Origin: Minisyncoccota bacterium
Lineage (GTDB): Bacteria; Patescibacteriota; Minisyncoccia; UBA6257; JAGOQP01
Length of the DNA: 64,000 nt
Direction: 5' to 3'
Assembly: GCA_041661795.1 (NCBI GenBank)
Contig: JBAZTS010000004.1
Coordinates: forward strand, 6,136-70,135
Of this stretch, positions 1,054-47,056 are shown in pieces. The notes below the pieces were generated by a model. That model was given only the letters and a program-made list of their open reading frames with translations, was not told the origin of the DNA and made no database searches. The position numbers were made by a program, and so were the translations under genes. Positions within the stretch are counted from its first letter, which is position 1. Each line of letters begins with the position of its first letter.

Positions 1054-1656
1054 TTGTTTAATTATATAACGACCATGAAAGGGGATAAAACTTTAGAAGT
1101 TCTTGAATTATTAGAGGGAGGATTTGAATTTTTCGGAGCTTTTGTCGAGGCCTTTCTCTCGGCAGGTTATGGAGCTTCCTCAAGTAGATTAGATTATGAG
1201 CACAATAAGGCGCTTGACAGAAGATCCGAAGAAAAACAGAAATTGGAAGAACGCAGACGTTTACACAGTTTGATTTATAAACTCAAAAAAGAAGGGTTAA
1301 TAACTTCCGCAAAAAAGAAAGAAAGCATTCCGTTTCTTACAAAAAAAGGAATTGCAAGTTTAAAAATCTTAAGAAAAAAGAAATCAAACAGTTTACCTGT
1401 TCCAGATTACAAAACAAACAAGTCAAACGACATCACAATTGTCACTTTTGATGTACCCGAAAAAGAAAAAAGAAAGAGGTATTGGCTTAGAGTGGCTTTG
1501 AAAAATATGGATTTTTATATGATTCAAAAAAGTGTTTGGTTTGGGAAGGTAGGACTTCCGGAAAGTTTCATAGAAGACGTTAGAAGAATAAACGTACTTG
1601 GCTATTTGGAAATATTCAAAGTCACTAAATCGGGAACGTTAAGAAAAATCACTTAA
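1054..1656 (+). CDS. Hypothetical wHTH-like protein with a C-terminal Cas2/VapD-like (PaaX-C-like) segment
   Basis: The C-terminal 'ITIVTFDVPEKEKRKRYWLRVALKNMDFYMIQKSVWFGK' resembles the Cas2-type beta-alpha-beta core (VTYDV..RR..V.K.L...G.RVQ.SVF). The N-terminus is basic and HTH-like. No CRISPR array is nearby. Confidence 0.4.
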   Translation: MFNYITTMKGDKTLEVLELLEGGFEFFGAFVEAFLSAGYGASSSRLDYEHNKALDRRSEEKQKLEERRRLHSLIYKLKKEGLITSAKKKESIPFLTKKGIASLKILRKKKSNSLPVPDYKTNKSNDITIVTFDVPEKEKRKRYWLRVALKNMDFYMIQKSVWFGKVGLPESFIEDVRRINVLGYLEIFKVTKSGTLRKIT

Positions 1657-15968: not shown

Positions 15969-15973
15969 GTGTG

Positions 15974-16045
15974 AGCGGGCGAGGAGAATCGAACTCCCGT
16001 CTCTTCCTTGGCAAGGAAATATAATAGCCATTATACGACGCCCGC
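15974..16045 (-). tRNA. tRNA-Gly (anticodon GCC)
   Basis: Cloverleaf read from the reverse complement: acceptor GCGGGCG/CGCCCGC, anticodon loop TTGCCAA, T-loop TTCGATT. No encoded CCA. Confidence 0.75.
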
Positions 16046-16084: not shown

Positions 16085-16215
16085 CTAATCTTGTCCGCCC
16101 GAAAGGAATCTCACATCGTCCGCTCAGGGCGGACTCTTTCAAAACCCTCGGTTTTGAATAATTTCCTACACAGAGGACTAAGCGTCCTCCGACCCACCTC
16201 TATTCGAATCCATTG
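16085..16215. repeat. Copy A of a roughly 130-nt conserved three-hairpin element located 3' of a tRNA (between tRNA-Lys and tRNA-Gly)
   Basis: About 90% identical to 46806-46935. Hairpins GTCCGC-TCAGG-GCGGAC, TTCAAAACC-CTC-GGTTTTGAA and GAGGAC-TAAGC-GTCCTC. The third hairpin shows compensatory substitutions between the two copies. It begins with TGTCCGCCC..GGAATC, mimicking the tRNA-Lys 3' end (TGTCCGCCC..GGATTC) about 170 nt away. Confidence 0.7.
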
Positions 16216-16257
16216 GGAACGGCATAATTTTAAATTACGATGTAATTCAAAATTTTG

Positions 16258-16330
16258 TCCGCCCACCAGGATTCGAACCTGGGACCTTCTCCTTAAGAGG
16301 GAGCAGCTCTACCAGCTGAGCTATGGGCGG
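16258..16330 (-). tRNA. tRNA-Lys (anticodon CTT)
   Basis: Cloverleaf from the reverse complement: D-arm GCTCAGCTGGTAGAGC, anticodon loop CTCTTAA, T-loop TTCGAAT. Confidence 0.75.
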
Positions 16331-16990: not shown

Positions 16991-18448
16991 TTGATGACGA
17001 AAACAAGTATCCCTAAAGAAATTATAGAAATTGCTAAAAAGCTTGAGAAAGCTGATTTTGATGCGTACTTGGTTGGCGGATGTGTTAGGGATGTTTTACT
17101 AGGACGGGATCCCAAGGATTGGGACATTACTACAAGCGCTAAACCAGAACAAATACAAAAATTATTTCCAGACAGCGTTTATGAAAATAATTTTGGCACT
17201 GTGGGAGTAAAAACAAGATCTAAAAATGAAACTCTCAAAATTGTGGAAATAACCACATTCAGAAAAGATATTAGCTACAGTGACGGCAGGCATCCAGATA
17301 AAATCGTTTTTGCCAAAACTGTAGAAGAGGACTTAGCCCGTCGTGATTTTACGGTTAATGCCATGGCGCTATCGCTTAAGTCTAAGCTTGTTGATATATT
17401 TGGTGGCCAAATTGATTTATCTAATAAGCTTATAAAAGCCGTTGGAAGTCCTGATGACAGATTTGGAGAAGACGCCTTAAGGATGCTAAGAGCCGTCAGA
17501 TTTTCCGCGCAACTTGATTTTCAGATAGAACAAAAAACTTTGGATTCAATAATCAAAAATTCCCATCTCTTAAAAAACATATCCAAAGAAAGAATCAGAG
17601 ATGAATTTCAAAAAATGATAATGACTCCAAGAGCCGCCTGGGCCGTTCAGATTCTTTCCAATTTAAAACTTCTTAAATTTATTATTCCGGAACTTGAAGA
17701 GGGCATTAATGTGGGACAAAATAAACATCATATCTATACAGTTTGGGAACATAATTTAAGGGCCTTAGATTACGCGGTTTCAAAAAATTATTCTCTTGAA
17801 ATACGACTGGGGTCCTTGCTTCATGATGTTGGAAAACCCAGAAGTAAATCCGGAGATGGTCCCAATTCAACTTTTTATCAACACGAATATATAGGAGCGA
17901 CGATGACTAAAAAGATATTAGAGAACCTAAAATTTCCCAAAGATGTGATTAATGACGTGACTTTACTTGTAAGGTGTCATCTTTTTTACTACAACGTGGG
18001 AGAAGTGAGTGCTGCCGGTGTCAGGAGATTTATCTCAAGAGTTGGGGAAGAATACATAGACGACATTTTAAAAATCAGAGAAGCCGACAGAATTGGCTCT
18101 GGGGTCCCTAAGGCATTCCCTTATCGTTTGCGTCACTTAAAATTTATGATAGAGAAAGTAAAACATGATCCGGTTTCTCCCAAAAACTTGAAAATCAACG
18201 GCAATGATCTGATAAAAAAATTATCTTTAAAACCCGGTCCACGCATCGGTCATATATTAAATTCTCTTTTGGAAGAAATCATAGAGGATCCCAAGAAAAA
18301 CATTAAATCTAATTTGGAAAAGAGAGCCAAAGCGTTGAACAAACTTTCCGACAAAGAGCTGTTAAAACTTAGAGAAAAAGCCGAAAAAGTTAAAGAAGAA
18401 TTTGAAACCGGCATAGAAGCCGAAATGAAAAAGAAACATAAGGTTTAA
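16991..18448 (+). CDS. cca: CCA-adding enzyme / poly(A) polymerase family with HD domain
   Basis: Nucleotidyltransferase motif 'GGCVRD..LG' with DxD, tRNA-NT head and HD motif (LLHDVGKP). Confidence 0.85.
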   Translation: MMTKTSIPKEIIEIAKKLEKADFDAYLVGGCVRDVLLGRDPKDWDITTSAKPEQIQKLFPDSVYENNFGTVGVKTRSKNETLKIVEITTFRKDISYSDGRHPDKIVFAKTVEEDLARRDFTVNAMALSLKSKLVDIFGGQIDLSNKLIKAVGSPDDRFGEDALRMLRAVRFSAQLDFQIEQKTLDSIIKNSHLLKNISKERIRDEFQKMIMTPRAAWAVQILSNLKLLKFIIPELEEGINVGQNKHHIYTVWEHNLRALDYAVSKNYSLEIRLGSLLHDVGKPRSKSGDGPNSTFYQHEYIGATMTKKILENLKFPKDVINDVTLLVRCHLFYYNVGEVSAAGVRRFISRVGEEYIDDILKIREADRIGSGVPKAFPYRLRHLKFMIEKVKHDPVSPKNLKINGNDLIKKLSLKPGPRIGHILNSLLEEIIEDPKKNIKSNLEKRAKALNKLSDKELLKLREKAEKVKEEFETGIEAEMKKKHKV

Positions 18449-20557: not shown

Positions 20558-20881
20558 ATGATAAACTACGAACAATTTAAACAGGTTGATTTAAAAGTTG
20601 CCAAAGTTTTGTTGGCAGAGAGGGTTGAGGGGTCTGAAAAACTCATCAAACTTCAAATTTCTTTAGGCGAGGAAGAAAGGCAAATTATTGCCGGTATTGG
20701 ATTAAAATATCAGCCGGAAGATTTAGTTGGAAAGAATATAATTATTGTTGCCAATCTTGAATCGCGGATATTGATGGGTCTTGAAAGCCAAGGAATGCTT
20801 TTGGCTGCCTCTAACGAAAATGAGGGACCGATTCTCTTGACTATTATGGAAGACATTGCTTCTGGAAGCGAAATTAGATAA
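20558..20881 (+). CDS. tRNA-binding protein (CsaA/Trbp111-like EMAP/Myf domain)
   Basis: 'VDLKVAKVL..E.VEGSEKL.KLQI..GEE.RQI.AGI' is a typical OB-fold tRNA-binding domain. Confidence 0.75.
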   Translation: MINYEQFKQVDLKVAKVLLAERVEGSEKLIKLQISLGEEERQIIAGIGLKYQPEDLVGKNIIIVANLESRILMGLESQGMLLAASNENEGPILLTIMEDIASGSEIR

Positions 20882-21730: not shown

Positions 21731-21985
21731 ATGGACAAAAAGATGTTTTCTACAAGCGAAGTTGCAAAACTTCTAGGAATTAGCCGGATAGCCGTGTTTA
21801 AAAAAGTTAAATCAGGTGAAATTAAAGCCCAGAGAATCGGCCGAAGTTTTGTTATAGATAAAAATGATCTTCCGTCTATTTTGGGAAAATCTCTAACCAA
21901 AAGCAAGAAACAGCTTATTGAAAGAGCTGTTAAAAAAACGGTTGATGAATATAGGGAAACATTAAAAATGTTAGGGCAAGAATGA
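21731..21985 (+). CDS. Excisionase-family HTH DNA-binding protein (putative antitoxin or regulator of the downstream Doc)
   Basis: HTH_17-like 'STSEVAKLLGISRIAVFKKVKSGEIKAQRIG'. Four-nt overlap with the Doc gene. Confidence 0.6.
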   Translation: MDKKMFSTSEVAKLLGISRIAVFKKVKSGEIKAQRIGRSFVIDKNDLPSILGKSLTKSKKQLIERAVKKTVDEYRETLKMLGQE

Positions 21986-22404
21986 AATCTTTAGACGTTA
22001 CTGAGGTTGAATACATTACTTATCGTCTGGCTAAGGAGTTGATGAAATGGAATGAGCCGATTCCGGATTTTAGCTCGCGTTTTTCCAATGTGCTTGAAAG
22101 TTGTTTGGCGGTTCCATTTCAATCTTTTGCTAAAAAAACTTTTTACAAAGGACTAGTTGAAAAATCAGCCATCCTTTTCTATTTAATGGTAAAGAATCAT
22201 CCATTCCAGAATGGTAATAAAAGAATTGCCATGGCGACTCTTTTATATTTTTTGTTTAAAAACAAAAAATGGCTTAAAGTTGACGAAAAAGAATTCTATA
22301 ACTTTGCCAGATGGATAGCGGAAAGTAATCCGAAGTTAAAAGAGGAGACAGTTAAAGCTATTCAAAAATTCCTAAAAACATATATTATTAATCTAAATAA
22401 TTAA
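21982..22404 (+). CDS. Doc/Fic-family toxin (death-on-curing)
   Basis: Fic/Doc motif 'HPFQNGNKR'. Confidence 0.75.
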   Translation: MKSLDVTEVEYITYRLAKELMKWNEPIPDFSSRFSNVLESCLAVPFQSFAKKTFYKGLVEKSAILFYLMVKNHPFQNGNKRIAMATLLYFLFKNKKWLKVDEKEFYNFARWIAESNPKLKEETVKAIQKFLKTYIINLNN

Positions 22405-22418
22405 CCAAATTTATAAAT

Positions 22419-22790
22419 ATGATATTTAGAAAACCAGAACAATTTGGTCAACAGGAAGAATCCCCAATTATTGAGCTACCGGATGATCAGGAATTAAGGC
22501 AAGTACTTGAAAATAAGCTGGCTGAATACAACGAGCGCCTCAAGAAAAATCCCTACCTTTCTCCAGAATCACCCGAGATATTGGACACCAAACATAAAAT
22601 TGCCGTCCTGGAAAAACTTCTTAAAGATGGGAGTGTTAACACCTATAATTTTTCCAAAGAGCTTTCCGAAGCTAGAGATTTTGTTTTTGATGCTAGTTTT
22701 TTTAACAATGCTTGTGCTGTTATAGAGGATTATGTAAAAACCGGCGGAAGACGGACTAGAGGAGGCACTGGCTTAAACAAATCAAACTAA
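22419..22790 (+). CDS. Hypothetical protein
   Basis: ORF with a ribosome-binding site context; no recognisable domain. Confidence 0.35.
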   Translation: MIFRKPEQFGQQEESPIIELPDDQELRQVLENKLAEYNERLKKNPYLSPESPEILDTKHKIAVLEKLLKDGSVNTYNFSKELSEARDFVFDASFFNNACAVIEDYVKTGGRRTRGGTGLNKSN

Positions 22791-22799
22791 AATATATCC

Positions 22800-23654
22800 A
22801 TGTCTAAAAATATTTTAATAATTATTCTGGCGGTTATTGTGGTGGGAGGAGGCGCCTATTTTATAATTAGTAATTTTTCCAATCCCTCAAACCAAGACCA
22901 AATCCAAAACCAAGCGGATGATTTTAACAAAATTGAAACTGCCGCTAAAAATTCGGCATATGTTATAGAAAGAGATTCTTTTGATTTACAGAACGGTTCT
23001 TCCAGTCAACCCTCGGGAACCGAGACAAAAGTTTTTAACGTGACATCTGGAGATATAAATCAGGACGGTAAAGCCGATGCTGTTGTTATTTTATTTCAAA
23101 ATTCTGGAGGAACCGGGACTTTCTTTTACGTTTCGGCTATAACAAATTCCAAAAATGCCTATCAACCGGCCGCTAATTCTGTATTTTTAGGTGACAGAAT
23201 TTCTCCTCAAACAGTTGAAATAAAGCAAGGACAAATAATCGTAAATTATGCCGATAGATATCCCTGGGAATCGTATGCGGCTACTCCAAGTGTCGGTAAA
23301 TCAAAATATCTCACATTTGAAAACGGACTTCTTAAAGAAAAAGAATTACCAAAACTTTCTTTAGATGAAGCCAGAAGATTGATTTTAGATAAATATTATA
23401 AGGATTGTTTACCTGTCGATTGTCCAACCAGTGTTAATGTTGATGTTTCGGATGGAGTTGATGGTGTTTGGTATGTTCAGGCGATTTTCAATGGTGTTAA
23501 AGATGATTCTGTTGATTCTCAAAAAAAGATTCATTCCGTTAATCTTGTTTCCGCTCCAAGTGAAACTTGGGCTTTGGGACAGGTATTAGTTAGTCAACAA
23601 AGATGTCAGCAAGGGAGAGGGCATCAGGAATTTTCAGAAGAACTGTGTTTATAG
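22800..23654 (+). CDS. Hypothetical membrane-anchored protein
   Basis: N-terminal TM anchor. The C-terminus extends into the GC-rich segment. Confidence 0.45.
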   Translation: MSKNILIIILAVIVVGGGAYFIISNFSNPSNQDQIQNQADDFNKIETAAKNSAYVIERDSFDLQNGSSSQPSGTETKVFNVTSGDINQDGKADAVVILFQNSGGTGTFFYVSAITNSKNAYQPAANSVFLGDRISPQTVEIKQGQIIVNYADRYPWESYAATPSVGKSKYLTFENGLLKEKELPKLSLDEARRLILDKYYKDCLPVDCPTSVNVDVSDGVDGVWYVQAIFNGVKDDSVDSQKKIHSVNLVSAPSETWALGQVLVSQQRCQQGRGHQEFSEELCL

Positions 23655-24576
23655 TGCTATCCCGGTTGACTTTTGTATGGTTCCGTAATAGTATAAAGAC
23701 AGCTCGTTTGAACTCAAAACGTGGAGTCCTGGGGGACACGCGACCGAAAACGGCTTGCGCTCCATCGGTGGCGCTATATAAAATAACCGATTCTGTGTCG
23801 TGTGGGCGAGGAAGTACACCTGCACACGACATGCCGCGGAGGTCGTAATCTCCGCTGGTCCGATTGACGGCACGTGTTGCCGTCGAAATAGTGGCTCTAT
23901 GCTACTGGAAGTTGTTACCACTCTTGTGGTAACGGAGGCGGTACCCACTCCGCTCTCCATTCCAAAAGGGGACGCCAAGCGCTCCCCGTAGGCATCGACG
24001 CCAGAAACAGATACATCGGATCGTGTAACACTTGATCAGTTCGCGTGCCCCCAGGCTCCCGTCAACACAGCACCACCCACCCCGCCCTCGAGGGTGGTTT
24101 CTTTTTATATAACTATATAACTTGACAAAATATTTAATGTATGATAACATGTGCACATGTGCAAACTGCAGATCCCGCACAACGACGGGATTGGTGCACG
24201 AGCACAGCATAGGGCGCAGGGATGAAGACCCTGTCTGCCTAAGCTAAGCTGTGCTCTTACCAAAGCAGGACCGCACGGGTCCAAAAAGAGCCCACCCAGA
24301 GTGGACTCAAGGGAACGAAGGCCTTGCCCGTTAGAGCCCAAATCAACTACAAGGGAACAACTCTGATTGACAATCGCTTTCCATCCCAAACCAAGAAGAG
24401 GATAGGCTTGAAGGTTTAATGTCATCTCAAACTCCTCACATTAGTGTTTACACTAATGTGACACAAAGTTTGACGAAGACAACCTCTCTCAAGCCACCTC
24501 AAAAATTTAAAGGTCGGCTACCTTTTCAAATAGCCACTGCACTCCTCGGTCTCTCTATGAGACCACTCGATCCTAA

Positions 24577-24606
24577 GGGACGCCCCGCGCGTCCCTTTCG
24601 CTTTTT
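24577..24606 (+). terminator. Rho-independent terminator (GGGACGC-CCCGC-GCGTCCC + TTTCGCTTTTT) closing the GC-rich non-coding island
   Basis: Perfect 7-bp GC stem followed by a U-run on the plus strand. Confidence 0.7.
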
Positions 24607-24651
24607 ATACAGTTTTGATTTTGTGGAGGCAAAGGAATAGAATTACAATAT

Positions 24652-25047
24652 ATGAACACATACAACTGGTATCAAACATTAATCAAACCCTCCTGGTCTC
24701 CGCCTTCATGGCTTTTCGGACCGGTTTGGACTTTTCTCTACGTTATTATCGCCGCTACCTTCGGCACGGTCTTCTACAAAGCTTTTACCGGAAAATTGCC
24801 CTGGCTTGTTGCCCTCCCCTTTATTCTCAATCTCATTTTTAATCTTGCTTTTACTCCTCTCCAGTTTGGACTTAAGAATAATTTTCTGGCGGCGGTTGAT
24901 ATTCTACTTGTTCTCGGGACTCTGGTTTGGGCATTAGTTGTTATTTATCCTTATGCCAAATGGATTACTTTTGCCAATCTTCCCTATCTTCTTTGGGTTT
25001 TATTTGCCACTGTTTTACAATTAACCATCACCTATCTAAACTGGTAG
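24652..25047 (+). CDS. tspO: TspO/MBR family tryptophan-rich sensory protein
   Basis: 'KPSWSPPSWLFGPVWTFLY' hallmark; five TM helices. Confidence 0.85.
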   Translation: MNTYNWYQTLIKPSWSPPSWLFGPVWTFLYVIIAATFGTVFYKAFTGKLPWLVALPFILNLIFNLAFTPLQFGLKNNFLAAVDILLVLGTLVWALVVIYPYAKWITFANLPYLLWVLFATVLQLTITYLNW

Positions 25048-25067
25048 GGAGATTATAAAATAAAAAT

Positions 25068-25376
25068 ATGGATCCAAAAGAAAACCTCAGGTCACCGGAA
25101 AAAATAAATCCTGTTATTGCTTCCAGTACGGAAGAGGCGAAAAGGATGAAGGAAGAAGGAGTTGATACGATCATCTTTAGACCCGATCAGTATGAAGTTA
25201 TTGTTTTTACTAAAAATCCAGATGTTGTGGAAAATATAATTGAAGGAAGTAATTGGAACTCTGGAGAAAACACTCCTGATGAGAAGGGATATTACGAATA
25301 TGTCTACACTCGACTTAATGAGAGTCAGTTGGTAGAACATTTAAAAGATCCATCAAAATTCCGAGGGGAGAATTAG
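25068..25376 (+). CDS. Hypothetical protein
   Basis: ORF only. Confidence 0.35.
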   Translation: MDPKENLRSPEKINPVIASSTEEAKRMKEEGVDTIIFRPDQYEVIVFTKNPDVVENIIEGSNWNSGENTPDEKGYYEYVYTRLNESQLVEHLKDPSKFRGEN

Positions 25377-25391
25377 TTTTGAAATAAAACC

Positions 25392-25805
25392 ATGGATTTT
25401 TTACCGATTATACCGGAATTTTATATATCTGATATCAAAAAAAGTTTAGAGTTCTATGTAGACGCTCTTGGGTTTAAAATTGAGTATAGGAGGGAAAATC
25501 CCAATTTCGTATTTTTGTCTTATCAGGGAAGTCAGCTAATGATTCAAGAATTGCGCGAAGGAGAGAAAGAAAGAGAAAAATTGGAATATCCATTTGGGAG
25601 GGGAATCAATTTTCAGATTAATACCGATAATATTTCCGCGATTGTTGATTCTTTGAAAAAACACAACTATCCTTTAAAAAAAGAGGCGGAGGATAATTGG
25701 TATAAAAAAGACGATACTGTGTATGGATGTCGAGAGGTATTAGTTTTAGATCCGGATGGCTATCTGCTTAGATTTTCAGAAAACATCGGACAAAAAGATA
25801 TTTAA
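25392..25805 (+). CDS. VOC-family (glyoxalase/bleomycin-resistance fold) protein
   Basis: 'FYVDALGFKIEY..' beta-alpha-beta-beta-beta module pattern. Confidence 0.65.
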   Translation: MDFLPIIPEFYISDIKKSLEFYVDALGFKIEYRRENPNFVFLSYQGSQLMIQELREGEKEREKLEYPFGRGINFQINTDNISAIVDSLKKHNYPLKKEAEDNWYKKDDTVYGCREVLVLDPDGYLLRFSENIGQKDI

Positions 25806-25809
25806 TCAA

Positions 25810-26265
25810 ATGGAAACTTGTATTTTTTGTAAAATAGTAAAAGGGGAAGTGCCGTGCCACAAGATTTGGGAGGATGAAAAGCACTTGGCTTTTTTGTCCA
25901 TATTTCCAAACACCGAGGGGTTCTCTGTGGTGATAACCAAAGAACATAATCCCAGTTACGCTTTTGATAATTCTGACGCAACTTTATCGGAACTGGTGCT
26001 GGCGGCCAAAAAGGTGGGAAAACTAATTGACCAAAAACTTCCTGACGTTGGCAGAACTGGAATGATTTTTGAAGGATTTGGAGTGGACCATTTACACGCT
26101 AAATTGTTTCCCATGCACGGAACTGAAAACATTAAAGAATGGAAACCGATAAAATCCAACGTGGATAAATACTTTGAAAAATACGAGGGATATATCTCCT
26201 CACATGATTATAAACGAGCCGATGACGAAAAACTGACCCAACTAGCCAAAAAGATAAGAGAGTAG
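25810..26265 (+). CDS. HIT-family (histidine triad) protein
   Basis: N-terminal 'CIFCKIVKGE.P...W.DE..LAFL' HIT-family pattern. Confidence 0.7.
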   Translation: METCIFCKIVKGEVPCHKIWEDEKHLAFLSIFPNTEGFSVVITKEHNPSYAFDNSDATLSELVLAAKKVGKLIDQKLPDVGRTGMIFEGFGVDHLHAKLFPMHGTENIKEWKPIKSNVDKYFEKYEGYISSHDYKRADDEKLTQLAKKIRE

Positions 26266-26311
26266 TAACCTGAGTATTATAAATCCCTCCCAAAATTTAA
26301 GTTGGGAAAAT

Positions 26312-26974
26312 ATGAAAATAAAAGATTTGCCAAAAGTTGATAGACCACGAGAAAAACTTATCAAGTACGGACCTGATAAATTAAACAACTCAGAACTTTT
26401 GGCAATCCTACTTGGTACGGGAACGAAAGGAACAAATGTAGTCGAGCTTGCTAATAAAATTCTTAAAAAATTCAGTGGTGATTATCTAGCCAAAGCGCAA
26501 TTTAAAGAGCTAAAAAACACATTTGGTCTGGGTAGTGCCAAAGCCTGCGAGATCGTCGCTTGTTTTGAGCTGGGTCGCAGGTTATTAAAGGGCAAGAAAT
26601 CAGTTTTGATTCTTTCTCCACAGGAAGTTTGGCACGAGTTAAGAGATATTAGAAACAACAAAAAGGAACATTTTGTTGTTTTTTATTTGGATACCAGAAA
26701 TCAAGAGATAAAAAGAAAGATAATTTCTATCGGTACTTTAAACGCCAATCTTGTCCATCCAAGGGAGGTTTTTGAGCCGGCAGTTAAGTACTCAGCCGCT
26801 CAAATCATTGTTGCTCACAATCATCCCTCCGGAGACACGGATCCTTCTCAGGAAGACATGGATATAACTAAACGCCTTGTCGAAACCGGTAAAATTCTTG
26901 ATATAGAAGTCTTGGATCATGTTATTGTTTCAAAAACTGGTTATTTTAGTTTTAAAGAAAAGAAGTTGATTTGA
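26312..26974 (+). CDS. radC: RadC-like JAB-domain protein
   Basis: HhH N-terminus and JAMM motif 'HNHPSG..PS..D'. Confidence 0.85.
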   Translation: MKIKDLPKVDRPREKLIKYGPDKLNNSELLAILLGTGTKGTNVVELANKILKKFSGDYLAKAQFKELKNTFGLGSAKACEIVACFELGRRLLKGKKSVLILSPQEVWHELRDIRNNKKEHFVVFYLDTRNQEIKRKIISIGTLNANLVHPREVFEPAVKYSAAQIIVAHNHPSGDTDPSQEDMDITKRLVETGKILDIEVLDHVIVSKTGYFSFKEKKLI

Positions 26975-27021
26975 GTTGGTGCGGGGTTGACATTGGGTTT
27001 GGTGTACACTATTATGTACAT

Positions 27022-27393
27022 ATGGACAAAAAAACAACGCTTTCCATATCGGAAGCAAGAAAAAAAATATTTGAAATAACCGAGGATGTTCAAAAACCGG
27101 GTACTAGTTACACCCTTACCGAAAGAGGTCGCCCCAAGGCCGTAATTATGTCTGTTGATGAACATGAATCTTGGGCCGAAACTCTGGAAGTTATAAAAGA
27201 TTTTCCTGATCTTAAAAAAGACGTTGCCGAAACTAAAAAAGCTGTCAGAATCGGAAGCTATAGAAAGTGGACGGCTCTTGAAGATCTCTTGAGAAAAGAG
27301 GGTTTTGTCGTGGCCGATAAATCGCCAAAAAAATATGGAGTATCAATTGAAAATAAAACCGGGGGTAGAAAAAGAAATAGAAAAACTTTCTAA
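27022..27393 (+). CDS. Phd/YefM-family antitoxin
   Basis: 'TLSISEARKKIFEIT...RPKAVIMSVDEHESWAETLEV' matches the YefM fold pattern. Start taken at the internal Met. Confidence 0.7.
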   Translation: MDKKTTLSISEARKKIFEITEDVQKPGTSYTLTERGRPKAVIMSVDEHESWAETLEVIKDFPDLKKDVAETKKAVRIGSYRKWTALEDLLRKEGFVVADKSPKKYGVSIENKTGGRKRNRKTF

Positions 27394-27592
27394 AAAAGAG
27401 TACCAGAGAATACTTTTGGCTTTTACGGCCATTGCCTCTGATCCATTCATCGGCAAAAAATTGGAGGGGGAATATGCCGAATGCTATTCCTACCGCGTCT
27501 GGCCCTATCGGATAATCTACCAGATTCTAAAAAAACAGCTTGTTGTGCTTGTTATCAAAGTCGGCCACCGCCAAGGAGTTTATAAAAAATGA
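27335..27592 (+). CDS. RelE/ParE-family toxin
   Basis: 'YRIIYQI..KQLVVLVIKVGHRQ' RelE/ParE C-terminal signature. The gene overlaps the antitoxin 3' end in another frame. Confidence 0.7.
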   Translation: MEYQLKIKPGVEKEIEKLSKKEYQRILLAFTAIASDPFIGKKLEGEYAECYSYRVWPYRIIYQILKKQLVVLVIKVGHRQGVYKK

Positions 27593-27778
27593 AAAAGGGC
27601 CATCGTCCTAACGGTCGACGCCCTCCTTAGATACTGTAAATACAGTATAACCCATATTTTATCTAAATCAATGAATTTGTGGATAACTCTAAAGTCATTG
27701 AATTCCCACTAAAAAGGGCATAGAATTGCATAAAATGCCACAAAATAAGAGGAAATTTGAATAAATTTATACATAACA

Positions 27779-30139
27779 ATGCCAGATTTTTCAAAAAAAG
27801 AACTTTCCGAACAAGATATTTGCTCAAAATATATCCTACCAGCTATTGTTAACGCCGGTTGGGATTTACAGAAGCAAATTCGCGAACAATACAGTTTTAC
27901 GGCTGGTCGCATTACTGTGCGCGGGAAGACTGTTTTTCGCGGAGAACAAAAACGTGTTGATTTTATTCTTTATCATCGGGGTCATCTCCCGCTCGCAATT
28001 ATTGAGGCAAAAGACAACGCTCATTCGGTTGGTGAAGGAATGCAACAGGCTTTGGGATATGCAGAAGCCCTTGATGTTCCATTTGTGTACAGCTCCAATG
28101 GAAACGCTTTTTTGGAGCATGACCGTATCACAAAAACAGACGCTGTTGAACGAGAACTTAAGCTAAGTGAATTTCCTTCGCCAGAGACGCTTTATAATCG
28201 TTATATAAAGGCCAAAAATATTATCCCCGCACAGGAGCAGATAATTATTCAAGATTATTACCATGAAATAGATGGAAAGTCACCACGCTATTTTCAGCAG
28301 GTGGCCATAAATCGCGCCACAGAAGAAATCGCCAAAGGTAAAAATCGTCTTCTGCTCGTAATGGCAACTGGTACCGGTAAAACTTACACCGCTTTCCAAA
28401 TTATCTGGCGTCTTTGGAAAGCCGGAGTAAAAAAACGCATTCTCTTTTTGGTTGATAGAAATATTTTGGCTGATCAGCCTATCATGAATGACTTTAGACA
28501 CTTTGGCGACAAGATGACGAAAATTCAACACCGTCAAGTTGATAAAGCTTACGAAGTTTATCTAGGACTTTATCAGGGTTTAACCGGTCTAGAAGAAGAA
28601 AAAAATATTTTTAAACAATTCTCTCCTGATTTTTTTGATTTGATAATCGTTGACGAATGTCACCGAGGGAGTGCTCGCGAAGATACTGCCTGGCGTGAGA
28701 TTCTGGAATATTATAAAAACGCCACTCAAATCGGTTTGACTGCCACTCCAAAAGAAACCGCCGACATTTCAACTCAAACTTATTTTGGCGAACCGGTATA
28801 CACTTACTCGCTCAGACAAGGCATTGAAGATGGTTTTCTGGCTCCTTATAAAGTCATTAGGGTTACGTTGGATAGAGATGCTGAAGGTTATCGTCCTACG
28901 GTTGGGGAGATTGATAAATATGATAATCCGATACCAGATAAAATTTTTAGTCAAAGTGATTTTGATCGCAAAATAGTACTGGAAGAACGTACCAAAGTCG
29001 TAGCCGAAAAAATCACTCAGTATCTCAAAGCTACTGATCGGATGCAAAAAGCGATTGTATTTTGTGTAGACACCGAACATGCCGATCGCATGCGTCAAGA
29101 ACTCGTAAACACAAACTCCGATCTTGTTAGTGATCATCCTAATTACATCGTTCGTATAACCGGTAACGATGAATATGGAGTAAAGGAACTTGATAGATTT
29201 ATCAATCCGGAAAGTCCTTATCCAGTCATTGCTACTACCTCAAAATTATTGACTACCGGAGTTGATACACAGACCGTTCGCCTTATTGTTATAGACCAAA
29301 ACATCAATTCAATGATTGAGTTTAAGCAAATCATTGGTCGCGGCACACGTGTGCGTGAAGATTATGGCAAGATGTTTTTTACCATTATGGATTTCCGGGG
29401 AGCTACGGAGTTATTTGCCGATCCTAAATTTGATGGTGACCCAGTTGTTATTTATCAAGCTAAAGAAAAAGGACCAATTATTGACCCCAACGAAGATGAA
29501 AAGGGAATTATTATAGAAGACAGACCAATTATTGATTATGATGTTTCAAGACCAAGAACTGGAATGGTTCATGACGAGCCTAAAAAATATTATCCCCAAG
29601 GCGTAGAAGTAAAAGTTATTAATGAGAGAGTCCAATATATGGATGAACATGGCAAACTTATCACTCAATCGCTTAAAGACTATACTAAACACAATATTTT
29701 AAAAGAATACGCTTCGCTGGATGATTTTTTAACCGCCTGGACGAAAGCCGAACAAAAAGATGCAATTTTAAACGAATTGGAGTCGCGTGGAGTATTTTTC
29801 CAAGAATTATCAGATGAAGTTGGTAAAGATTTAGATCCTTTTGATCTCGTTTGTCATGTCGCCTGGGGTAAAAAACCTCTTACGCGTCATCAGAGAGCAG
29901 AAAAAGCTCGTAAGGATGATTATTTTGCAAAATACAAAGGTAAGGCGCGTCAAGTTATAGATGCTCTTTTAATAAAATATGCCGACCAAGGCATTACTGC
30001 TATTGATGACATCGGCGATCTTCAAGTCCCGCCCCTTAACGAATTTGGAACTCCTGTCGAAATTGTAGATATTATCTTTGGTGGTCGGGAGAAATATTTA
30101 GAAGTTATTCAGGAAGTTCAGCAAGCTCTTTACTCTTAA
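27779..30139 (+). CDS. hsdR: Type I restriction enzyme R subunit
   Basis: N-terminal PD-(D/E)xK nuclease region, SF2 helicase motifs (MATGTGKT, DECHR, TATPKET), HsdR C-terminal domain. Confidence 0.9.
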   Translation: MPDFSKKELSEQDICSKYILPAIVNAGWDLQKQIREQYSFTAGRITVRGKTVFRGEQKRVDFILYHRGHLPLAIIEAKDNAHSVGEGMQQALGYAEALDVPFVYSSNGNAFLEHDRITKTDAVERELKLSEFPSPETLYNRYIKAKNIIPAQEQIIIQDYYHEIDGKSPRYFQQVAINRATEEIAKGKNRLLLVMATGTGKTYTAFQIIWRLWKAGVKKRILFLVDRNILADQPIMNDFRHFGDKMTKIQHRQVDKAYEVYLGLYQGLTGLEEEKNIFKQFSPDFFDLIIVDECHRGSAREDTAWREILEYYKNATQIGLTATPKETADISTQTYFGEPVYTYSLRQGIEDGFLAPYKVIRVTLDRDAEGYRPTVGEIDKYDNPIPDKIFSQSDFDRKIVLEERTKVVAEKITQYLKATDRMQKAIVFCVDTEHADRMRQELVNTNSDLVSDHPNYIVRITGNDEYGVKELDRFINPESPYPVIATTSKLLTTGVDTQTVRLIVIDQNINSMIEFKQIIGRGTRVREDYGKMFFTIMDFRGATELFADPKFDGDPVVIYQAKEKGPIIDPNEDEKGIIIEDRPIIDYDVSRPRTGMVHDEPKKYYPQGVEVKVINERVQYMDEHGKLITQSLKDYTKHNILKEYASLDDFLTAWTKAEQKDAILNELESRGVFFQELSDEVGKDLDPFDLVCHVAWGKKPLTRHQRAEKARKDDYFAKYKGKARQVIDALLIKYADQGITAIDDIGDLQVPPLNEFGTPVEIVDIIFGGREKYLEVIQEVQQALYS

Positions 30140-30149
30140 TTAAAATTGT

Positions 30150-31580
30150 ATGTCTGAAATCCAATCTATAATAAAAAACATCCAGAATATAATGCGCCAA
30201 GACGCAGGTGTTGATGGCGATGCCCAACGGCTCTCTCAGCTTGTTTGGATGTTGTTTTTGAAAATATTTGACGATCAGGAAAAAGAGAGGGAACTTATAA
30301 ATCCCAAGTATAAATCTCCGATTCCACAGGATCTTCGTTGGCGTAATTGGGCAAGCAATCCAGAAGGGACAACCGGCGATAAATTGCTTGATTTTGTAAA
30401 TAACACTCTTTTTAAACGTCTCAAAGATTTATCTTTTGACGAAAGCGAAGACCCGCGCGGTTTTATAGTCCGCGAAGTATTTGCCGATAGTTATAACTAT
30501 ATGAAGTCCGGAACGCTTATTCGTCAGGTTATCAATAAAATCAACGAAATTAATTTCAATAAAGCCGACGACCGCCACGCTTTTAACGATTTATACGAAC
30601 ATCTGCTAAAAGAGCTTCAGAGTGCCGGAAATGCGGGGGAATACTACACGCCTCGCCCTCTCACACGTTTCATCGTGGAAATGGTAAATCCTAAACTCGG
30701 CGAATCCGTGTTGGACCCAGCTTGTGGCACGGGGGGATTTTTAATTGATACTATTGAATATATAAGAAAAAATGAGATAAAAAATCAATCAGATGAAAGA
30801 AAATTACAAAACCAGATTCACGGAGTGGAACTTAAACCGTTACCACATTTGCTTGCTATAACCAATATGATTTTACACGGCGTGGATACTCCAAAACATC
30901 TTCGTTGTGGCGATATGCTCTCTCAACCTCTTCGTGAATACGGTCCCAAAGACAGAGTGGATGTAATCGTAGCCAATCCTCCATTTGGTGGAGCGGTAAA
31001 AGACGGAGTGGAAAAAAACTTTCCTGCCGAGTTTCGTACCAAAGAGACCGCTGATTTATTTTTAGTTTTATTTATACATCTCCTTAAACCTAACGGCCGA
31101 GCCGGAATTATTTTACCTGACGGGTCTCTTTTTGGAGAAGGCGTAAAGACTGCTATTAAGAAAAAACTACTTGAAGAATGTAATGTTCACACCATCATCC
31201 GCTTATCCCAAGGAGTTTTTAACCCATATGCCGGAGTAAATACCAATCTTATATTTTTCACCAAAGGCGAACCCACAAAAGAGATTTGGTATTATCAGCT
31301 TCCGCTTCCGGATGGAATGAAACAATACACAAAAAATCGTGGTATAACTCATGAAGAGTTTAATGTTGTCCGCAAATGGTGGGGAAGCCGTAAGTCAAAT
31401 GGAAATTCCTGGAAGGTCTCCATAAAAGAAATTCAGGAAAGAAATTATAATTTAGACTTTAAAAATCCAAACGGCAATGCAAAAACTAACCACAAGGATC
31501 CAAGGGAAGTTTTAGGGGAGATTAAGGAGAAAGAAAAAGAAATAACCAAAATACTGGGAGAAATTGATAGACAAATATAA
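30150..31580 (+). CDS. hsdM: Type I restriction-modification N6-adenine methyltransferase subunit
   Basis: HsdM N-domain; SAM motif 'DPACGTGGFL'; 'NPPFG' catalytic motif. Confidence 0.9.
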   Translation: MSEIQSIIKNIQNIMRQDAGVDGDAQRLSQLVWMLFLKIFDDQEKERELINPKYKSPIPQDLRWRNWASNPEGTTGDKLLDFVNNTLFKRLKDLSFDESEDPRGFIVREVFADSYNYMKSGTLIRQVINKINEINFNKADDRHAFNDLYEHLLKELQSAGNAGEYYTPRPLTRFIVEMVNPKLGESVLDPACGTGGFLIDTIEYIRKNEIKNQSDERKLQNQIHGVELKPLPHLLAITNMILHGVDTPKHLRCGDMLSQPLREYGPKDRVDVIVANPPFGGAVKDGVEKNFPAEFRTKETADLFLVLFIHLLKPNGRAGIILPDGSLFGEGVKTAIKKKLLEECNVHTIIRLSQGVFNPYAGVNTNLIFFTKGEPTKEIWYYQLPLPDGMKQYTKNRGITHEEFNVVRKWWGSRKSNGNSWKVSIKEIQERNYNLDFKNPNGNAKTNHKDPREVLGEIKEKEKEITKILGEIDRQI

Positions 31581-46537: not shown

Positions 46538-46816
46538 TTAGCTACAGAATATAACAATATAGACGCCAATCATTATAGCGTTGAACCAAATGCAATCTCG
46601 CGAATAGATTTCGCTTGGTTGTTTTTTATAAACCGTAATTGTAGAAGTTATTAGAGGAGGTAAATGAACCAATAAGACAACCAAAACAATTATTAATTTC
46701 AAATCAATTTCTGTTAAATATCCTAAAATAATTAAAAAGAAACCAGCGCTACAAAGAAACCATATTGCATGGTTTGCGTTTCTAAAGATTCTTTTTTTAA
46801 CTAACCATTCAATCAT
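46538..46816 (-). CDS. Hypothetical small membrane protein (92 aa)
   Basis: Two to three TM helices. The start abuts the end of repeat copy B. Confidence 0.4.
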   Translation of the reverse strand: MIEWLVKKRIFRNANHAIWFLCSAGFFLIILGYLTEIDLKLIIVLVVLLVHLPPLITSTITVYKKQPSEIYSRDCIWFNAIMIGVYIVIFCS

Positions 46817-46935
46817 TGTGAGCGGGTAAGGGGAATCTCACGTCGTCCGCTCAAGGCGGACTCTTTCAAAACCCTCGGTTTTGAATAATTTCCTACACGG
46901 AAGATTAAGCATCTCCCGACCCCTCTCTATTCGAT
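46806..46935. repeat. Copy B of the roughly 130-nt tRNA-associated three-hairpin element (3' of tRNA-Trp)
   Basis: About 90% identical to 16085-16215. It begins with TGAGCGGGTAAGGGGAATC, an exact 19-nt duplicate of the tRNA-Trp 3' end located 180 nt away. A bidirectional hairpin plus T-run (46940-46980) separates it from tRNA-Trp. Confidence 0.7.
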
Positions 46936-46985
46936 TCCATTCCACTCATAAAAAATATCCCGGCGATGCGGAATATTTTTTTATG

Positions 46986-47056
46986 AGCGGGTAAGGGGAA
47001 TCGAACCCCTGGCGCCAGTTTGGAAAACTGGGGTATTACCACTATACGATACCCGC
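46986..47056 (-). tRNA. tRNA-Trp (anticodon CCA)
   Basis: Cloverleaf from the reverse complement: GCGGGTA acceptor, anticodon loop TTCCAAA, T-loop TTCGATT. Confidence 0.75.

What the first reader, a model, noticed from the sequence alone, without database searches (positions are those of the whole stretch)
16085..16215. Roughly 130-nt three-hairpin element inserted 3' of tRNA genes with duplication of the tRNA 3' end (second copy at 46806..46935)
The two loci are 30 kb apart and share about 90% identity over about 130 nt.

The element:
- Hairpins GTCCGC-TCAGG-GCGGAC and TTCAAAACC-CTC-GGTTTTGAA.
- A third hairpin showing compensatory changes: GAGGAC/GTCCTC in one copy versus GGAGAT/ATCTCC in the other.
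- Hairpins 1 and 2 are identical between the two copies.

Its position:
- Each copy lies about 170-180 nt from a minus-strand tRNA (Lys; Trp).
- Each starts with a near-exact copy of that tRNA's 3' acceptor/T-stem: 19/19 nt for Trp and about 15/19 for Lys.
- Arrangement is tRNA - short spacer with terminator-like hairpin - element - duplicated tRNA 3' end.

This is the signature of site-specific integration into the tRNA 3' end. Here the inserted unit is tiny and non-coding. It may be a MITE-like mobile RNA/DNA element, the att remnant of excised islands, or a structured sRNA co-transcribed with tRNAs.
Basis: seen in the sequence. Interest (0 to 1): 0.75.

Follow-up and report, generated by a model that had tools for sequence, protein, structure and literature searches.

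The report
Guide-bearing structured RNA insertion at tRNA ends
The two 130-nt repeats are copies of a widespread, apparently undescribed structured RNA element of Patescibacteria (Paceibacterota, candidate phyla radiation) that sits at the ends of tRNA and other conserved genes, carries an arm complementary to that gene end and is followed by a second copy of the gene end, so it behaves like a new kind of small insertion element.

Summary

- **What it is.** A four-helix core of about 90 nt with strong covariation. It has no Rfam match and I found no literature match.
- **How common.** 99 distinct copies came from 118 metagenome and GTDB loci, all from Patescibacteria MAGs where named. The window holds exactly two.
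- **Layout everywhere.** Gene end (U), palindromic trailer, antisense arm complementary to U, purine-rich linker, core, then a direct copy of the gene end (D).
- **tRNA contexts.** 47 copies follow tRNAs of 25 isoacceptors, and D matches only its own tRNA tail.
- **Other contexts.** Copies follow rpsI, sit antisense at the 5' ends of dnaX, rnhA and GTPase genes, or lie between cistrons of ribosomal-protein operons.
- **Evidence of insertion.** Occupancy differs between genomes within one conserved Leu-Val-Phe-Gly tRNA array. Tandem copies exist. One genome has identical cores beside two different tRNAs.
- **No enzyme found.** No recombinase, transposase or reverse transcriptase lies nearby.

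Best reading (about 0.5): a non-autonomous, guide-bearing insertion module that duplicates or replaces the host gene end. Both window copies are probably co-transcribed with their tRNAs. The chemistry of insertion and the role of the core are unknown. The main rival is a host RNA-processing or switch device.

The parts
16257..16330 (-). tRNA-Lys(CUU), the host gene of copy 1. Its tail, U, is 16257-16274 (GAAUCCUGGUGGGCGGAC).
   Evidence: ARAGORN. Rfam tRNA 66.5 bits. A promoter-like site lies at 16367-16339 just upstream.
16225..16256 (-). AT-rich palindromic trailer between tRNA-Lys and the element. With U and the antisense arm it forms one long hairpin.
   Evidence: Fold of the tail, trailer and arm gives -37.4 kcal/mol. 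The same design is seen in nearly all tRNA-linked copies.
16203..16222 (-). Antisense (guide) arm of copy 1. The outer part is CCGUUCCC (16215-16222) and the inner part is GGAUUCGAA (16203-16211). It is complementary to the acceptor 3' strand and T arm of tRNA-Lys.
   Evidence: Read from the sequence. Duplex energy is -20.8 kcal/mol with U versus -13.9 with D. Own 5' arm with own 3' flank gives -16.1 kcal/mol.
16194..16202 (-). Conserved purine-rich linker (UAGAGGUGG), which resembles a Shine-Dalgarno sequence.
   Evidence: Conserved as RRGGGGKGG in alignment A2. It is unpaired in most context classes.
16115..16193 (-). Core of copy 1. P1 5' GUC 16191-16193; P2 16172-16190; J2/3 GUGUAGGAAAUUA 16159-16171; P3 16138-16158; J3/4 AGAG 16134-16137; P4 16119-16133; P1 3' CGAU 16115-16118.
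   Evidence: Covariance-model hit of 84.2 bits, E = 8.5e-19. Covariation counts.
16090..16114 (-). GUGA (16111-16114) followed by D, a diverged direct copy of the tRNA-Lys tail (GAUUCCUUUCGGGCGGACAAG, 16090-16110).
   Evidence: 4 differences from U in 18 nt.
15973..16045 (-). tRNA-Gly(GCC) immediately downstream of copy 1. It is complete and is not part of the element.
   Evidence: The order Arg(UCG), Lys(CUU), element, Gly(GCC) is shared with locus L064.
46985..47056 (-). tRNA-Gly(UCC), the host gene of copy 2. Its tail, U, is 46984-47002.
   Evidence: A promoter-like site lies at 47109-47081.
46949..46983 (-). Palindromic, terminator-like trailer between tRNA-Gly and the element.
   Evidence: Fold gives -37.8 kcal/mol. 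The simple terminator scan did not flag it.
46929..46948 (-). Antisense (guide) arm of copy 2. The outer part is UGAGUGG (46942-46948), which pairs with CCGCUCA. The inner part is GGAAUCGAAU (46929-46938), which pairs with the T-loop and T-stem 3' half.
   Evidence: Read from the sequence. Own 5' arm with own 3' flank gives -17.3 kcal/mol.
46921..46928 (-). Purine-rich linker (AGAGAGGG).
46842..46920 (-). Core of copy 2. P1 5' 46918-46920; P2 46899-46917; J2/3 46886-46898; P3 46865-46885; J3/4 46861-46864; P4 46846-46860; P1 3' CGAC 46842-46845.
   Evidence: Covariance-model hit of 88.7 bits, E = 6.6e-20.
46819..46841 (-). GUGA (46838-46841) followed by D, an exact 19-nt copy of the tRNA-Gly(UCC) tail (GAUUCCCCUUACCCGCUCA, 46819-46837).
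46538..46816 (-). 92-codon hydrophobic ORF whose AUG starts 2 nt after D. It is a possible downstream cistron of unknown status.
   Evidence: ORF list. No Pfam family.

Best explanation
The two repeats are members of an undescribed family of small, non-coding insertion modules in Patescibacteria (Paceibacterota).

Each module has five parts:
- an arm complementary to the last 10-20 nt of a conserved host gene, here the T-arm and acceptor 3' strand of tRNA-Lys(CUU) and tRNA-Gly(UCC);
- a purine-rich linker;
- a conserved RNA core of about 90 nt with four helices;
- a short adaptor (GUGA in the window);
- a second copy of the host gene's end.

The module inserts at, or is recombined into, the end of a gene. 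Because the terminal segment is present twice, the host gene stays intact.

I infer that the antisense arm is what ties a copy to its target. I also infer that the duplicated end lets the module be gained, lost, tandemly amplified and passed between genomes by recombination.

In the window both copies are old, fixed insertions. They are most simply transcribed by read-through from the tRNA promoters.

Shown: family membership, RNA-type structure, the gene-end / arm / core / gene-end layout, target-specific arms, and presence/absence polymorphism.

Inferred: that targeting works by base pairing, that an RNA intermediate or RNA-guided step is involved, and what enzyme acts (none identified).
For: **Family.** 78 metagenome loci and 40 GTDB loci came from one 25-nt degenerate pattern. 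Every named one is a Patescibacteria MAG, and there can be 5 or more copies per MAG.

**Structure.**
- P2 has 6 of 8 pairs with compensatory changes and P4 has 5 of 5.
- The covariation score is 0.294 against 0.134 in shuffles, exceeded in 0 of 500.
- P3 covaries in divergent copies.
- The match is strand-specific.

**Target-specific ends.**
- D aligned to its own tRNA tail scores 15.2 of 20. Against tails of other isoacceptors it scores 5.4, and only 0.05% of those reach 14.
- Own arm with own flank gives -15.9 kcal/mol, against -10.8 for mismatched pairs, p = 1.5e-8.
- Where U and D differ, the arm pairs better with the resident gene end than with D in about 25 of 28 copies.

**Insertion behaviour.**
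- In a conserved Leu(GAG)-Val(UAC)-Phe(GAA)-Gly(GCC) array the element follows Leu in L013 and L092, Val and Gly in L087, and Gly only in L060 and L097. The empty spacers are 6-40 nt.
- Comparing filled L013 with empty L087 gives an insertion plus an 18-nt duplication.
- Tandem units occur in L064 and L022.
- Two cores in L087 are identical, apart from the last base of P1, beside different tRNAs.

**Same layout at protein-gene ends.** D is there a diverged copy that differs mostly at synonymous sites.

**No coding capacity or enzyme.** No mobile-element protein recurs near copies or appears in the roughly 60 of the window's 87 ORFs of at least 100 aa that were scanned against Pfam.
Against: - No enzyme or intermediate has been identified, so mobility is inferred from comparative patterns only. 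Losses by recombination between U and D could explain part of the polymorphism.
- The near-invariant junction nucleotides across divergent lineages, and the 14 intercistronic copies that abut start codons in ribosomal-protein operons, look like host function rather than selfish spread.
- The window genome has no close relative with an empty site, so insertion at these two loci is not shown directly.
- Copies inside one genome are often well diverged, so there is no sign of a recent burst.
- Enrichment at contig ends is not significant: 15 observed against 10.7 expected, P = 0.09.
Confidence: 0.5

Rival explanations
1. A host cis-acting RNA device rather than a mobile element. The core binds a ligand or protein, or is a processing site. 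Three segments compete: the gene end (U), the anti-U arm and the U mimic (D). The arm either closes the element by pairing with D or sequesters the real tRNA T-arm and acceptor strand (or an mRNA end). This would control maturation, stability or downstream translation of translation-related transcripts.
For: - Junction nucleotides are highly conserved and the helices covary.
- The element is co-oriented with tRNAs in essentially all tRNA-linked copies.
- Intercistronic copies lie in the spc operon and upstream of L32, NusB and L10, ending 1-5 nt before the AUG. A CCUCU/CCUCC strand there faces the GGAGG-like linker.
- Folds of the whole transcript predict the alternative fold, with U paired to the arm and the tRNA 5' acceptor strand paired to D, at z = -5.8 and -6.6.
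- There is no promoter-like site between the tRNA and the element.
Against: - It does not explain copies lying antisense at the 5' ends of dnaX, rnhA, typA-like and fusA-like genes with duplicated N-terminal codons.
- It does not explain tandem units, or occupancy that varies inside one conserved tRNA array.
- It does not explain why D keeps tRNA positions the arm does not pair with, plus up to 16 nt of flank.
- Only 2 of 7 tRNAs in the window carry the element.
Confidence: 0.25
2. An intron-like element in which D is the true 3' exon. The arm acts as an internal guide that aligns the exon sequences, and [U tail - trailer - arm - core] is removed, possibly as a circle. The upstream tail copy only makes the unspliced transcript functional as well.
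For: - In tRNA-linked copies the arm is complementary to an uninterrupted T arm. Its order is a segment pairing with positions 57-62 followed by a segment pairing with positions 52-56, which resembles a group I internal guide sequence.
- Predicted folds pair the tRNA 5' acceptor strand with D.
- D carries CCA in 14 of 41 copies, and in 8 of those U does not.
- Group I introns are common in Patescibacteria tRNA genes (PMC13011429).
Against: - The U tails are intact, functional-looking tRNA ends in nearly all copies, so splicing is not needed.
- The 90-nt core has none of the group I or group II core elements and gives no Rfam intron hit even at E up to 10.
- Antisense copies in protein genes cannot be spliced from the mRNA.
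- The excess of CCA in D is also explained if insertion occurs after C74 of genes that encode CCA.
Confidence: 0.07
3. Leftover attL/attR scars of integrase-mediated islands or prophages that excised or decayed. On this view the 130 nt would be a conserved attP arm.
For: Direct repeats of the tRNA 3' end running from the T loop onward are the classic signature of integration into tRNA genes.
Against: - There is no integrase in the roughly 60 window ORFs scanned, and none recurs near 99 copies.
- There are no hits in viral contigs.
- The unit has the same size and boundaries at 25 isoacceptors and at protein genes.
- Its helices covary like an RNA.
- The tail copy in D is interrupted or modified in the T loop by GUGA or by an inserted hairpin.
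Confidence: 0.03
4. An independent small RNA gene with tRNA-like ends. It would be released by RNase P, RNase Z or RNase III from tRNA read-through transcripts and would act in trans, for example by pairing with its cognate tRNA.
For: - The arm and D form an acceptor/T-like helix.
- The long hairpin of U, trailer and arm is a plausible RNase III substrate.
- D often ends in a discriminator followed by CA or CCA.
Against: - The helix usually includes the CA, and often the flank, so there is no free NCCA end.
- This reading does not explain the protein-gene and intercistronic contexts.
Confidence: 0.1

Closest known systems
Integrative elements that target tRNA genes (attL/attR with a duplicated tRNA 3' end)
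   Same: - An intact tRNA is followed by inserted DNA and then a second copy of the tRNA 3' end, starting in the T loop or T stem.
- At protein genes the inserted side appears to supply a replacement gene end.
   Different: - The insert is only 110-200 nt with no integrase.
- One conserved core sits at 25 isoacceptors and at unrelated protein genes.
- An antisense arm is present.
- RNA-type covariation is present.
Group I introns of Patescibacteria tRNA genes (PMC13011429)
   Same: - A structured RNA inserted in or at tRNA genes of the same phylum.
- A 5' guide-like segment complementary to exon sequence.
- No homing endonuclease gene in most cases.
   Different: - The core is about 90 nt with four helices and no P3-P9 core or G-binding site.
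- It gives no Rfam intron hit.
- It lies after a complete tRNA rather than interrupting the anticodon loop.
- It duplicates the exon end.
MITE-type bacterial repeats (Correia/NEMIS, RPE, REP/BIME)
   Same: Short, non-coding, multi-copy, hairpin-forming, intergenic or gene-terminal, and transcribed with neighbouring genes.
   Different: - The arms are copied from or complementary to each local target instead of being constant terminal inverted repeats.
- The duplication is 18-83 nt, not 2-10 bp.
- The internal core is conserved across classes of organisms, with compensatory base changes.
Guide RNAs of mobile elements (IS110 bridge RNA, IS200/IS605 TnpB omega RNA, group II intron EBS)
   Same: A structured scaffold joined to a segment that matches the flanking target, so target choice could be programmed by base pairing.
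   Different: - No recombinase, TnpB or reverse transcriptase lies adjacent.
- The guide pairs with the same segment that is duplicated downstream.
- Neither the scaffold nor the guide layout resembles those RNAs, and there are no Rfam matches.
Retrozymes and SINE-like non-autonomous retroelements
   Same: Small non-coding units linked to tRNA sequence, occurring in tandem copies, with long and variable target duplications.
   Different: - No known ribozyme motif and no poly(A) or LTR.
- A bacterial host.
- No reverse transcriptase has been identified.

Membership tests
Any Rfam 15 RNA family (including self-cleaving ribozymes, introns, riboswitches, omega RNAs, tRNA-like RNAs) | A covariance-model match at or near the family's gathering score | tested here: not met
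   The gathering-score scan of the window finds only tRNAs and tmRNA. Scans at E up to 10 of both window copies and of two other subtypes give only chance-level hits.
MITE | Constant terminal inverted repeats shared by all copies | tested here: not met
   The outer arms differ between copies and match the local gene end.
MITE | A short target-site duplication of fixed length (2-10 bp) | tested here: not met
   The duplications are 18-83 nt and vary in length.
tRNA-targeting integrative element | Direct repeat of the tRNA 3' end flanking the insert | tested here: met
   19/19 nt in copy 2. 35 of 45 tRNA-linked copies have at least 14 of 20 matches to their own tail.
tRNA-targeting integrative element | A tyrosine or serine integrase encoded in or next to the insert, or relatives that carry one | tested here: not met
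   None among the roughly 60 window ORFs scanned. No recurrent recombinase within 4 kb of 99 copies. No viral-contig hits.
Group I intron | A conserved P3-P9 catalytic core and interruption of the host gene | tested here: not met
   No Rfam intron hit. The upstream tRNAs are complete.
Group I intron | Self-splicing activity | not testable with these tools
   This needs in vitro transcription or RNA-seq junction reads.
Riboswitch or cis-regulatory leader | A conserved aptamer with variable expression platforms upstream of a coherent gene set | tested here: inconclusive
   The conserved core with variable closing helices fits. The 14 intercistronic copies precede ribosomal-protein, NusB and SecY genes, among other genes. 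However, about half of the copies follow tRNAs and some are antisense to the adjacent gene.
Riboswitch or cis-regulatory leader | Ligand or protein binding that changes gene expression | not testable with these tools
IS110 bridge RNA / IS605 omega RNA | Encoded at the end of an element that carries the cognate recombinase or TnpB | tested here: not met
   No such ORF lies next to any copy.
TIGR-Tas guide arrays (known in Parcubacteria) | Tandem repeat units of about 36 nt with split spacers next to a Tas gene | tested here: not met
   Those units are 36-nt tigRNAs (PMC12045711). This element has a 90-nt core and is mostly solitary.
tRNA-like structure / acceptor-T minihelix | A 12-bp coaxial acceptor/T helix with a free 3' NCCA | tested here: not met
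   The arm-D helix is interrupted by internal loops. It usually pairs the CA and sometimes the flank.

The most novel reading that the evidence does not exclude
The core is a small catalytic or RNP-forming RNA that uses its 5' antisense arm as a programmable guide. With it the element would join itself to the end of a conserved gene (DNA or RNA), followed by copying into the genome. That would be a new class of RNA-guided mobile element, much smaller than group I or II introns, that protects its host gene by carrying or creating a spare gene end.
Probability: 0.15. Interest if true: 0.95.

Novelty: categorically new. Interest (0 to 1): 0.8.

Why it matters
**If it is mobile.** It would be a protein-less module that finds conserved gene ends by base pairing and keeps the host gene whole through a spare copy of that end. 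It would add a new design to the list of mobile genetic elements and could become a programmable insertion tool.

**If it is a host device.** It would be the first RNA element known to link tRNA 3' ends, ribosomal-protein operons and other translation genes in the reduced genomes of the candidate phyla radiation, where regulation is almost unknown.

**Either way.** It is a large, well-supported structured RNA family that current annotation misses. Its duplicated tRNA tails can confuse tRNA and att-site annotation.

Tried and rejected
- **Too-specific pattern.** An exact 31-mer that included part of P4 found nothing in GTDB genomes, because P4 is variable.
- **Viral contigs.** No hits.
- **Rfam.** Nothing at gathering scores or at permissive E-values for three subtypes.
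- **Literature.** Seven searches found nothing describing this element, including searches for the conserved sequence strings. The group I intron paper and the TIGR-Tas paper concern other things.
- **Empty-site relatives of the window genome.** Searching through the neighbouring SET-domain protein failed: the nearest homologues are about 60% identical and not syntenic.
- **Associated enzyme.** Clustering of ORFs within 4 kb of every copy gave only housekeeping genes. Pfam scans of about 60 of the window's 87 ORFs of at least 100 aa gave none.
- **Contig-end enrichment as a repeat signature.** Not significant.
- **Readings considered and dropped.**
  - tRNA-Sec or a long-arm tRNA: ARAGORN does not call one.
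  - tmRNA-like, SRP, 5S or RNase P RNA: no Rfam hits.
  - Retron msr/msd: no reverse transcriptase nearby.
  - DGR TR/VR: the repeats are too short, the differences are not adenine-specific, and there is no reverse transcriptase.
  - K-turn: the GUGA opposite GAAY can form tandem G-A pairs, but the strand opposite is not a canonical K-turn.
  - A promoter inside the element: no consensus found.
Full report
**1. Checking the observation**

The two loci exist as described and align over about 130 nt. A 31-nt string from the centre occurs exactly twice in the window and never in 100 shuffles.

ARAGORN and Rfam place these tRNAs:
- tRNA-Lys(CUU) at 16257-16330(-);
- tRNA-Gly(GCC) at 15973-16045(-);
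- tRNA-Gly(UCC) at 46985-47056(-).

The tRNA-like stretch of each copy is real. 46819-46837 equals the last 19 nt of tRNA-Gly(UCC), which are 46984-47002. 16090-16110 is a diverged copy of the tRNA-Lys tail.

On the tRNA strand the order is: tRNA, palindromic trailer, element, tail copy. The tail copy is therefore the 3' end of the element, not its start.

**2. A large family, not a two-copy repeat**

A degenerate 25-nt pattern over the central hairpin, TTCAAAACCNNNGGTTTTGAAAGAG, gave:
- 78 loci in metagenome contigs;
- 40 loci in GTDB species representatives;
- none in viral contigs.

All named records are Patescibacteria MAGs: Paceibacterota/Parcubacteria, Staskawicz-, Lipton-, Wolfe- and Colwellbacteria, and some labelled Saccharibacteria. 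One MAG has hits on five contigs.

The window's own SET-domain protein is recorded from a Candidatus Paceibacterota MAG.

After removing duplicates there are 99 distinct copies.

Nothing in Rfam 15 matches. This holds at gathering scores and at E up to 10 for the window copies and two other subtypes.

Seven literature searches, including the conserved strings themselves, found no description. The two nearest papers concern group I tRNA introns and 36-nt TIGR guide RNAs.

**3. Structure**

An alignment of 54 cores (A2) supports four helices around conserved junctions:

| Part | Sequence or feature |
|---|---|
| P1 | GUC / GAY |
| P2 | variable hairpin |
| J2/3 | GUGUAGGAAAUUA |
| P3 | UUCAAAACC-GNG-GGUUUUGAA |
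| J3/4 | AGAG |
| P4 | variable hairpin, often with tandem G-A pairs |

Pair counts:
- 95.2% of cells are paired, against 84.6% in shuffles.
- The covariation score is 0.294 against 0.134, exceeded in 0 of 500 shuffles.
- P2 has 6 of 8 pairs changed on both sides and P4 has 5 of 5.
- P1 shows one A-U exchange.
- Sliding the partners by 1-3 columns drops pairing to 36-66%.

P3 was fixed by the search pattern. Divergent copies found with the covariance model R1 show compensatory changes there too, for example CUAAGAACC/GGUUCUUAG.

R1 finds exactly two copies in the window, both on the minus strand, at 88.7 and 84.2 bits. The plus strand gives at most 16 bits.

UUCG and CUUG loops, and G-U pairs, suggest that the selected fold is RNA.

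**4. The common layout**

In all contexts the core is preceded by a conserved purine-rich linker, RRGGGGKGG. Before that lies an arm that pairs with the sequence following the core. A copy's own arm pairs with its own 3' flank far better than with the flanks of other copies: mean -15.9 against -10.8 kcal/mol, p = 1.5e-8.

Of 94 assessable copies, 47 follow a same-strand tRNA. These represent 25 isoacceptors.

In these tRNA-linked copies:
- The 3' flank, D, repeats the tail of that particular tRNA. Its own tail scores 15.2 of 20, against 5.4 for other isoacceptors, and only 0.05% of those reach 14.
- The repeat starts in the T loop or T-stem 3' strand. It runs to the discriminator plus 1-2 nt, and sometimes up to 16 nt into the flank.
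- D is joined to the core by GUGA, as in the window, or by GGGUUC-UA-hairpin-G.
- The tRNA tail (U), its palindromic trailer and the arm fold into one long near-perfect hairpin.
- Where U and D differ, the arm pairs more strongly with U than with D in about 25 of 28 copies, including window copy 1.

**5. Other contexts**

- Six or more copies follow rpsI, with a 22-33-nt copy of its last codons and stop codon. In L022 there are two tandem units, each followed by such a copy.
- Others follow unrelated ORFs in the sense orientation. L002 has an 80-nt perfect repeat.
- Others lie antisense at the 5' ends of dnaX, rnhA, a typA-like gene and a fusA-like gene. There D is a second copy of the first 10-28 codons.
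- In these protein-gene cases the two copies differ mainly at synonymous sites. For rnhA in L037 the count is about 13 synonymous against 4 non-synonymous codon differences. The two versions therefore evolved under coding constraint in separate lineages before being brought together.
- Fourteen copies have no duplication. Where the flanking genes can be named they lie between cistrons: L5|S14, L15|SecY, L32|NusB, and upstream of L32 and L10. In those with an upstream same-strand ORF they start roughly 20-35 nt after its stop codon. They end 1-5 nt before the next AUG in about half the copies and up to about 15 nt before it in the rest, with no Shine-Dalgarno sequence there. A CCUCU/CCUCC strand faces the GGAGG-like linker.

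**6. Evidence for gain and loss**

A conserved array, Leu(GAG)-Val(UAC)-Phe(GAA)-Gly(GCC), is occupied differently in different genomes:

| Locus | Element follows |
|---|---|
| L013, L092 | Leu (L092 also has a divergent copy after Gly) |
| L087 | Val and Gly |
| L060, L097 | Gly only |

- Empty junctions have spacers of 6-40 nt.
- L087 and L013 share an identical tRNA-Leu tail. Comparing the empty junction with the filled one gives an insert of arm, core and adaptor plus an 18-nt duplication, GA(C/U)UCCUGUCCCGCGCAC.
- The two L087 cores are identical, apart from the last base of P1, although their arms match different tRNAs.
- L064 carries two tandem units after tRNA-Lys(CUU). Its gene order, Arg(UCG), Lys(CUU), element, Gly(GCC), is the same as at window copy 1. 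That site is therefore old and shared.
- Sub-types such as the GCUUAG loop and the GUGA adaptor group by organism rather than by tRNA.

**7. What is not there**

- No integrase, transposase, reverse transcriptase or HUH nuclease recurs within 4 kb of copies.
- None is found among the roughly 60 window ORFs scanned. Those do include RNase Y, RuvB, HU, a CCA-adding enzyme and a type I restriction system.
- Promoter-like sites lie only upstream of the two tRNAs, not between tRNA and element. Read-through from the tRNA promoter is therefore the simplest source of transcripts.
- Whole-transcript folds are far more stable than shuffles (z = -5.8 and -6.6). They predict an alternative fold in which U pairs with the arm and the tRNA 5' acceptor strand pairs with D.

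**8. Most likely explanation**

I read the element as a non-autonomous insertion module that is tied to its site by a target-complementary arm and that leaves the host gene intact because the terminal segment is present twice.

This accounts for:
- the target-specific arms;
- the direct repeat;
- variable occupancy;
- tandem units;
- the antisense copies at 5' ends;
- the restriction to conserved genes.

The synonymous divergence of U and D fits either of two scenarios:
- The module arrives with a replacement gene end, as a Campbell-type integration or a homology-anchored recombination in which D is the short right-hand arm.
- The gene plus arm are later replaced by allelic exchange between filled loci.

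A target-primed copying model would also give the layout. In it the element's 3' end is joined at the edge of the arm-target duplex and a second-strand break occurs 18-80 nt downstream.

All of these mechanistic steps are inference. No enzyme or intermediate was seen. I put about 0.5 on the insertion-module reading as a whole and much less on any one chemistry.

**9. Rivals**

- *Host cis-acting device* (about 0.25). The core would sense something and U, arm and D would compete. It fits the extreme conservation, the predicted alternative fold and the intercistronic copies. It fits poorly with the antisense copies, tandem units and variable occupancy. The two readings are not exclusive: the intercistronic copies may be co-opted.
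- *Independent small RNA released by tRNA-processing enzymes* (about 0.10). The arm-D helix and the long U-trailer-arm hairpin fit, but there is no free NCCA end and the other contexts are unexplained.
- *Intron-like* (about 0.07). The arm resembles an internal guide, but U is intact and the core is unlike known introns.
- *att scars* (about 0.03). No integrase is present, the structure covaries like an RNA, and D is modified in the T loop.
- *Local segmental duplication.* Excluded by the family size and the unrelated flanks.

**10. Comparison with known systems and novelty**

The element resembles tRNA-targeting integrative elements in the duplicated tail. It resembles group I introns in having a guide-like arm and in its phylum. 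It resembles MITEs in size and copy number, and guide RNAs of mobile elements in having a scaffold plus a target match.

It fails a tested defining feature of each (see the membership table). With no Rfam match and no literature match, I rate it as lying outside the known kinds, while noting that finding the acting enzyme could fold it into one of them.

**11. Dead ends**

- The first genome scan used a pattern that was too specific.
- No close relative of the window genome gave an empty site.
- Contig-end enrichment was not significant.

Noticed in passing
L004 about 2470-2700 (shown): A tRNA-Gly-like gene appears to be split. A 5' half (GCGAGGUUAAUAUAGUGGCAAUAUACGACCUUCC...) and a 3' half (...GGUUGAUACGCGGGUUCGAUUCCCGUACCUCGCUCA) are separated by about 120 nt that contain a complete tRNA-Gly(CCC). 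The element follows the 3' half.
   Followed up: no
L016, L034, L040, L054: Copies of the same core sit between cistrons of ribosomal-protein operons (L5|S14, L15|SecY, L32|NusB). They end 1-5 nt before an AUG that has no Shine-Dalgarno sequence. A CCUCU/CCUCC strand pairs with the GGAGG-like linker. This may be co-option for translation control.
   Followed up: partly
L037, L058, L076, L003/L102: Orphan second copies of the first 10-28 codons of rnhA, a typA-like gene, a fusA-like gene and dnaX lie beyond the element. At least one keeps its own ATG. They differ from the resident copy mostly at synonymous sites.
   Followed up: partly
L019: An exception. By inspection, the arm and D match each other (a tRNA-His-like tail, GUCCCGUCGUCCACCC) but not the resident tRNA-His tail (GGUUGGGCACCC). 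This suggests a foreign allele of the tail.
   Followed up: no
Many loci, e.g. L004, L008, L039, L055; also the minimal P4 form CGAAGCG: The sequence GCGAAGC recurs both as the hairpin inserted in the T-loop copy and as the shortest P4. From my own knowledge, it is known as an unusually stable mini-hairpin in DNA.
   Followed up: no
window 47126-47191: A 25-nt inverted repeat, 92% complementary (TTGATTTACCCCCACACTAATTGTG / CACAATTAGTGTGGGGGTATACCAA). It lies between tRNA-Gly(UCC) and the ORF that starts at 47197.
   Followed up: no
window 58039-61581 (+): An isoleucyl-tRNA-synthetase-like protein of 1180 aa with a histidine-phosphatase (His_Phos_1) domain inserted between the catalytic and anticodon-binding parts.
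   Followed up: no
window 16991-18448 (+) and 20558-20881 (+): A CCA-adding enzyme gene lies next to the tRNA-Arg / tRNA-Lys / element cluster. A stand-alone tRNA-binding-domain protein lies 4 kb away. This is probably coincidence.
   Followed up: no
window 1054-1656 (+): A 200-aa protein with a PaaX/Cas2-like domain and no CRISPR array nearby.
   Followed up: no
window 21982-35557: A cluster of defence-type genes: Fic/DOC, RadC, Phd/YefM antitoxin, type I restriction R, M and S subunits, and a weak HEPN hit.
   Followed up: no
window 55668-58013 (+): A 781-aa ORF with no Pfam family. It lies next to the tmRNA gene (54838-55155, tag ANKNLAPAFAFA).
   Followed up: no
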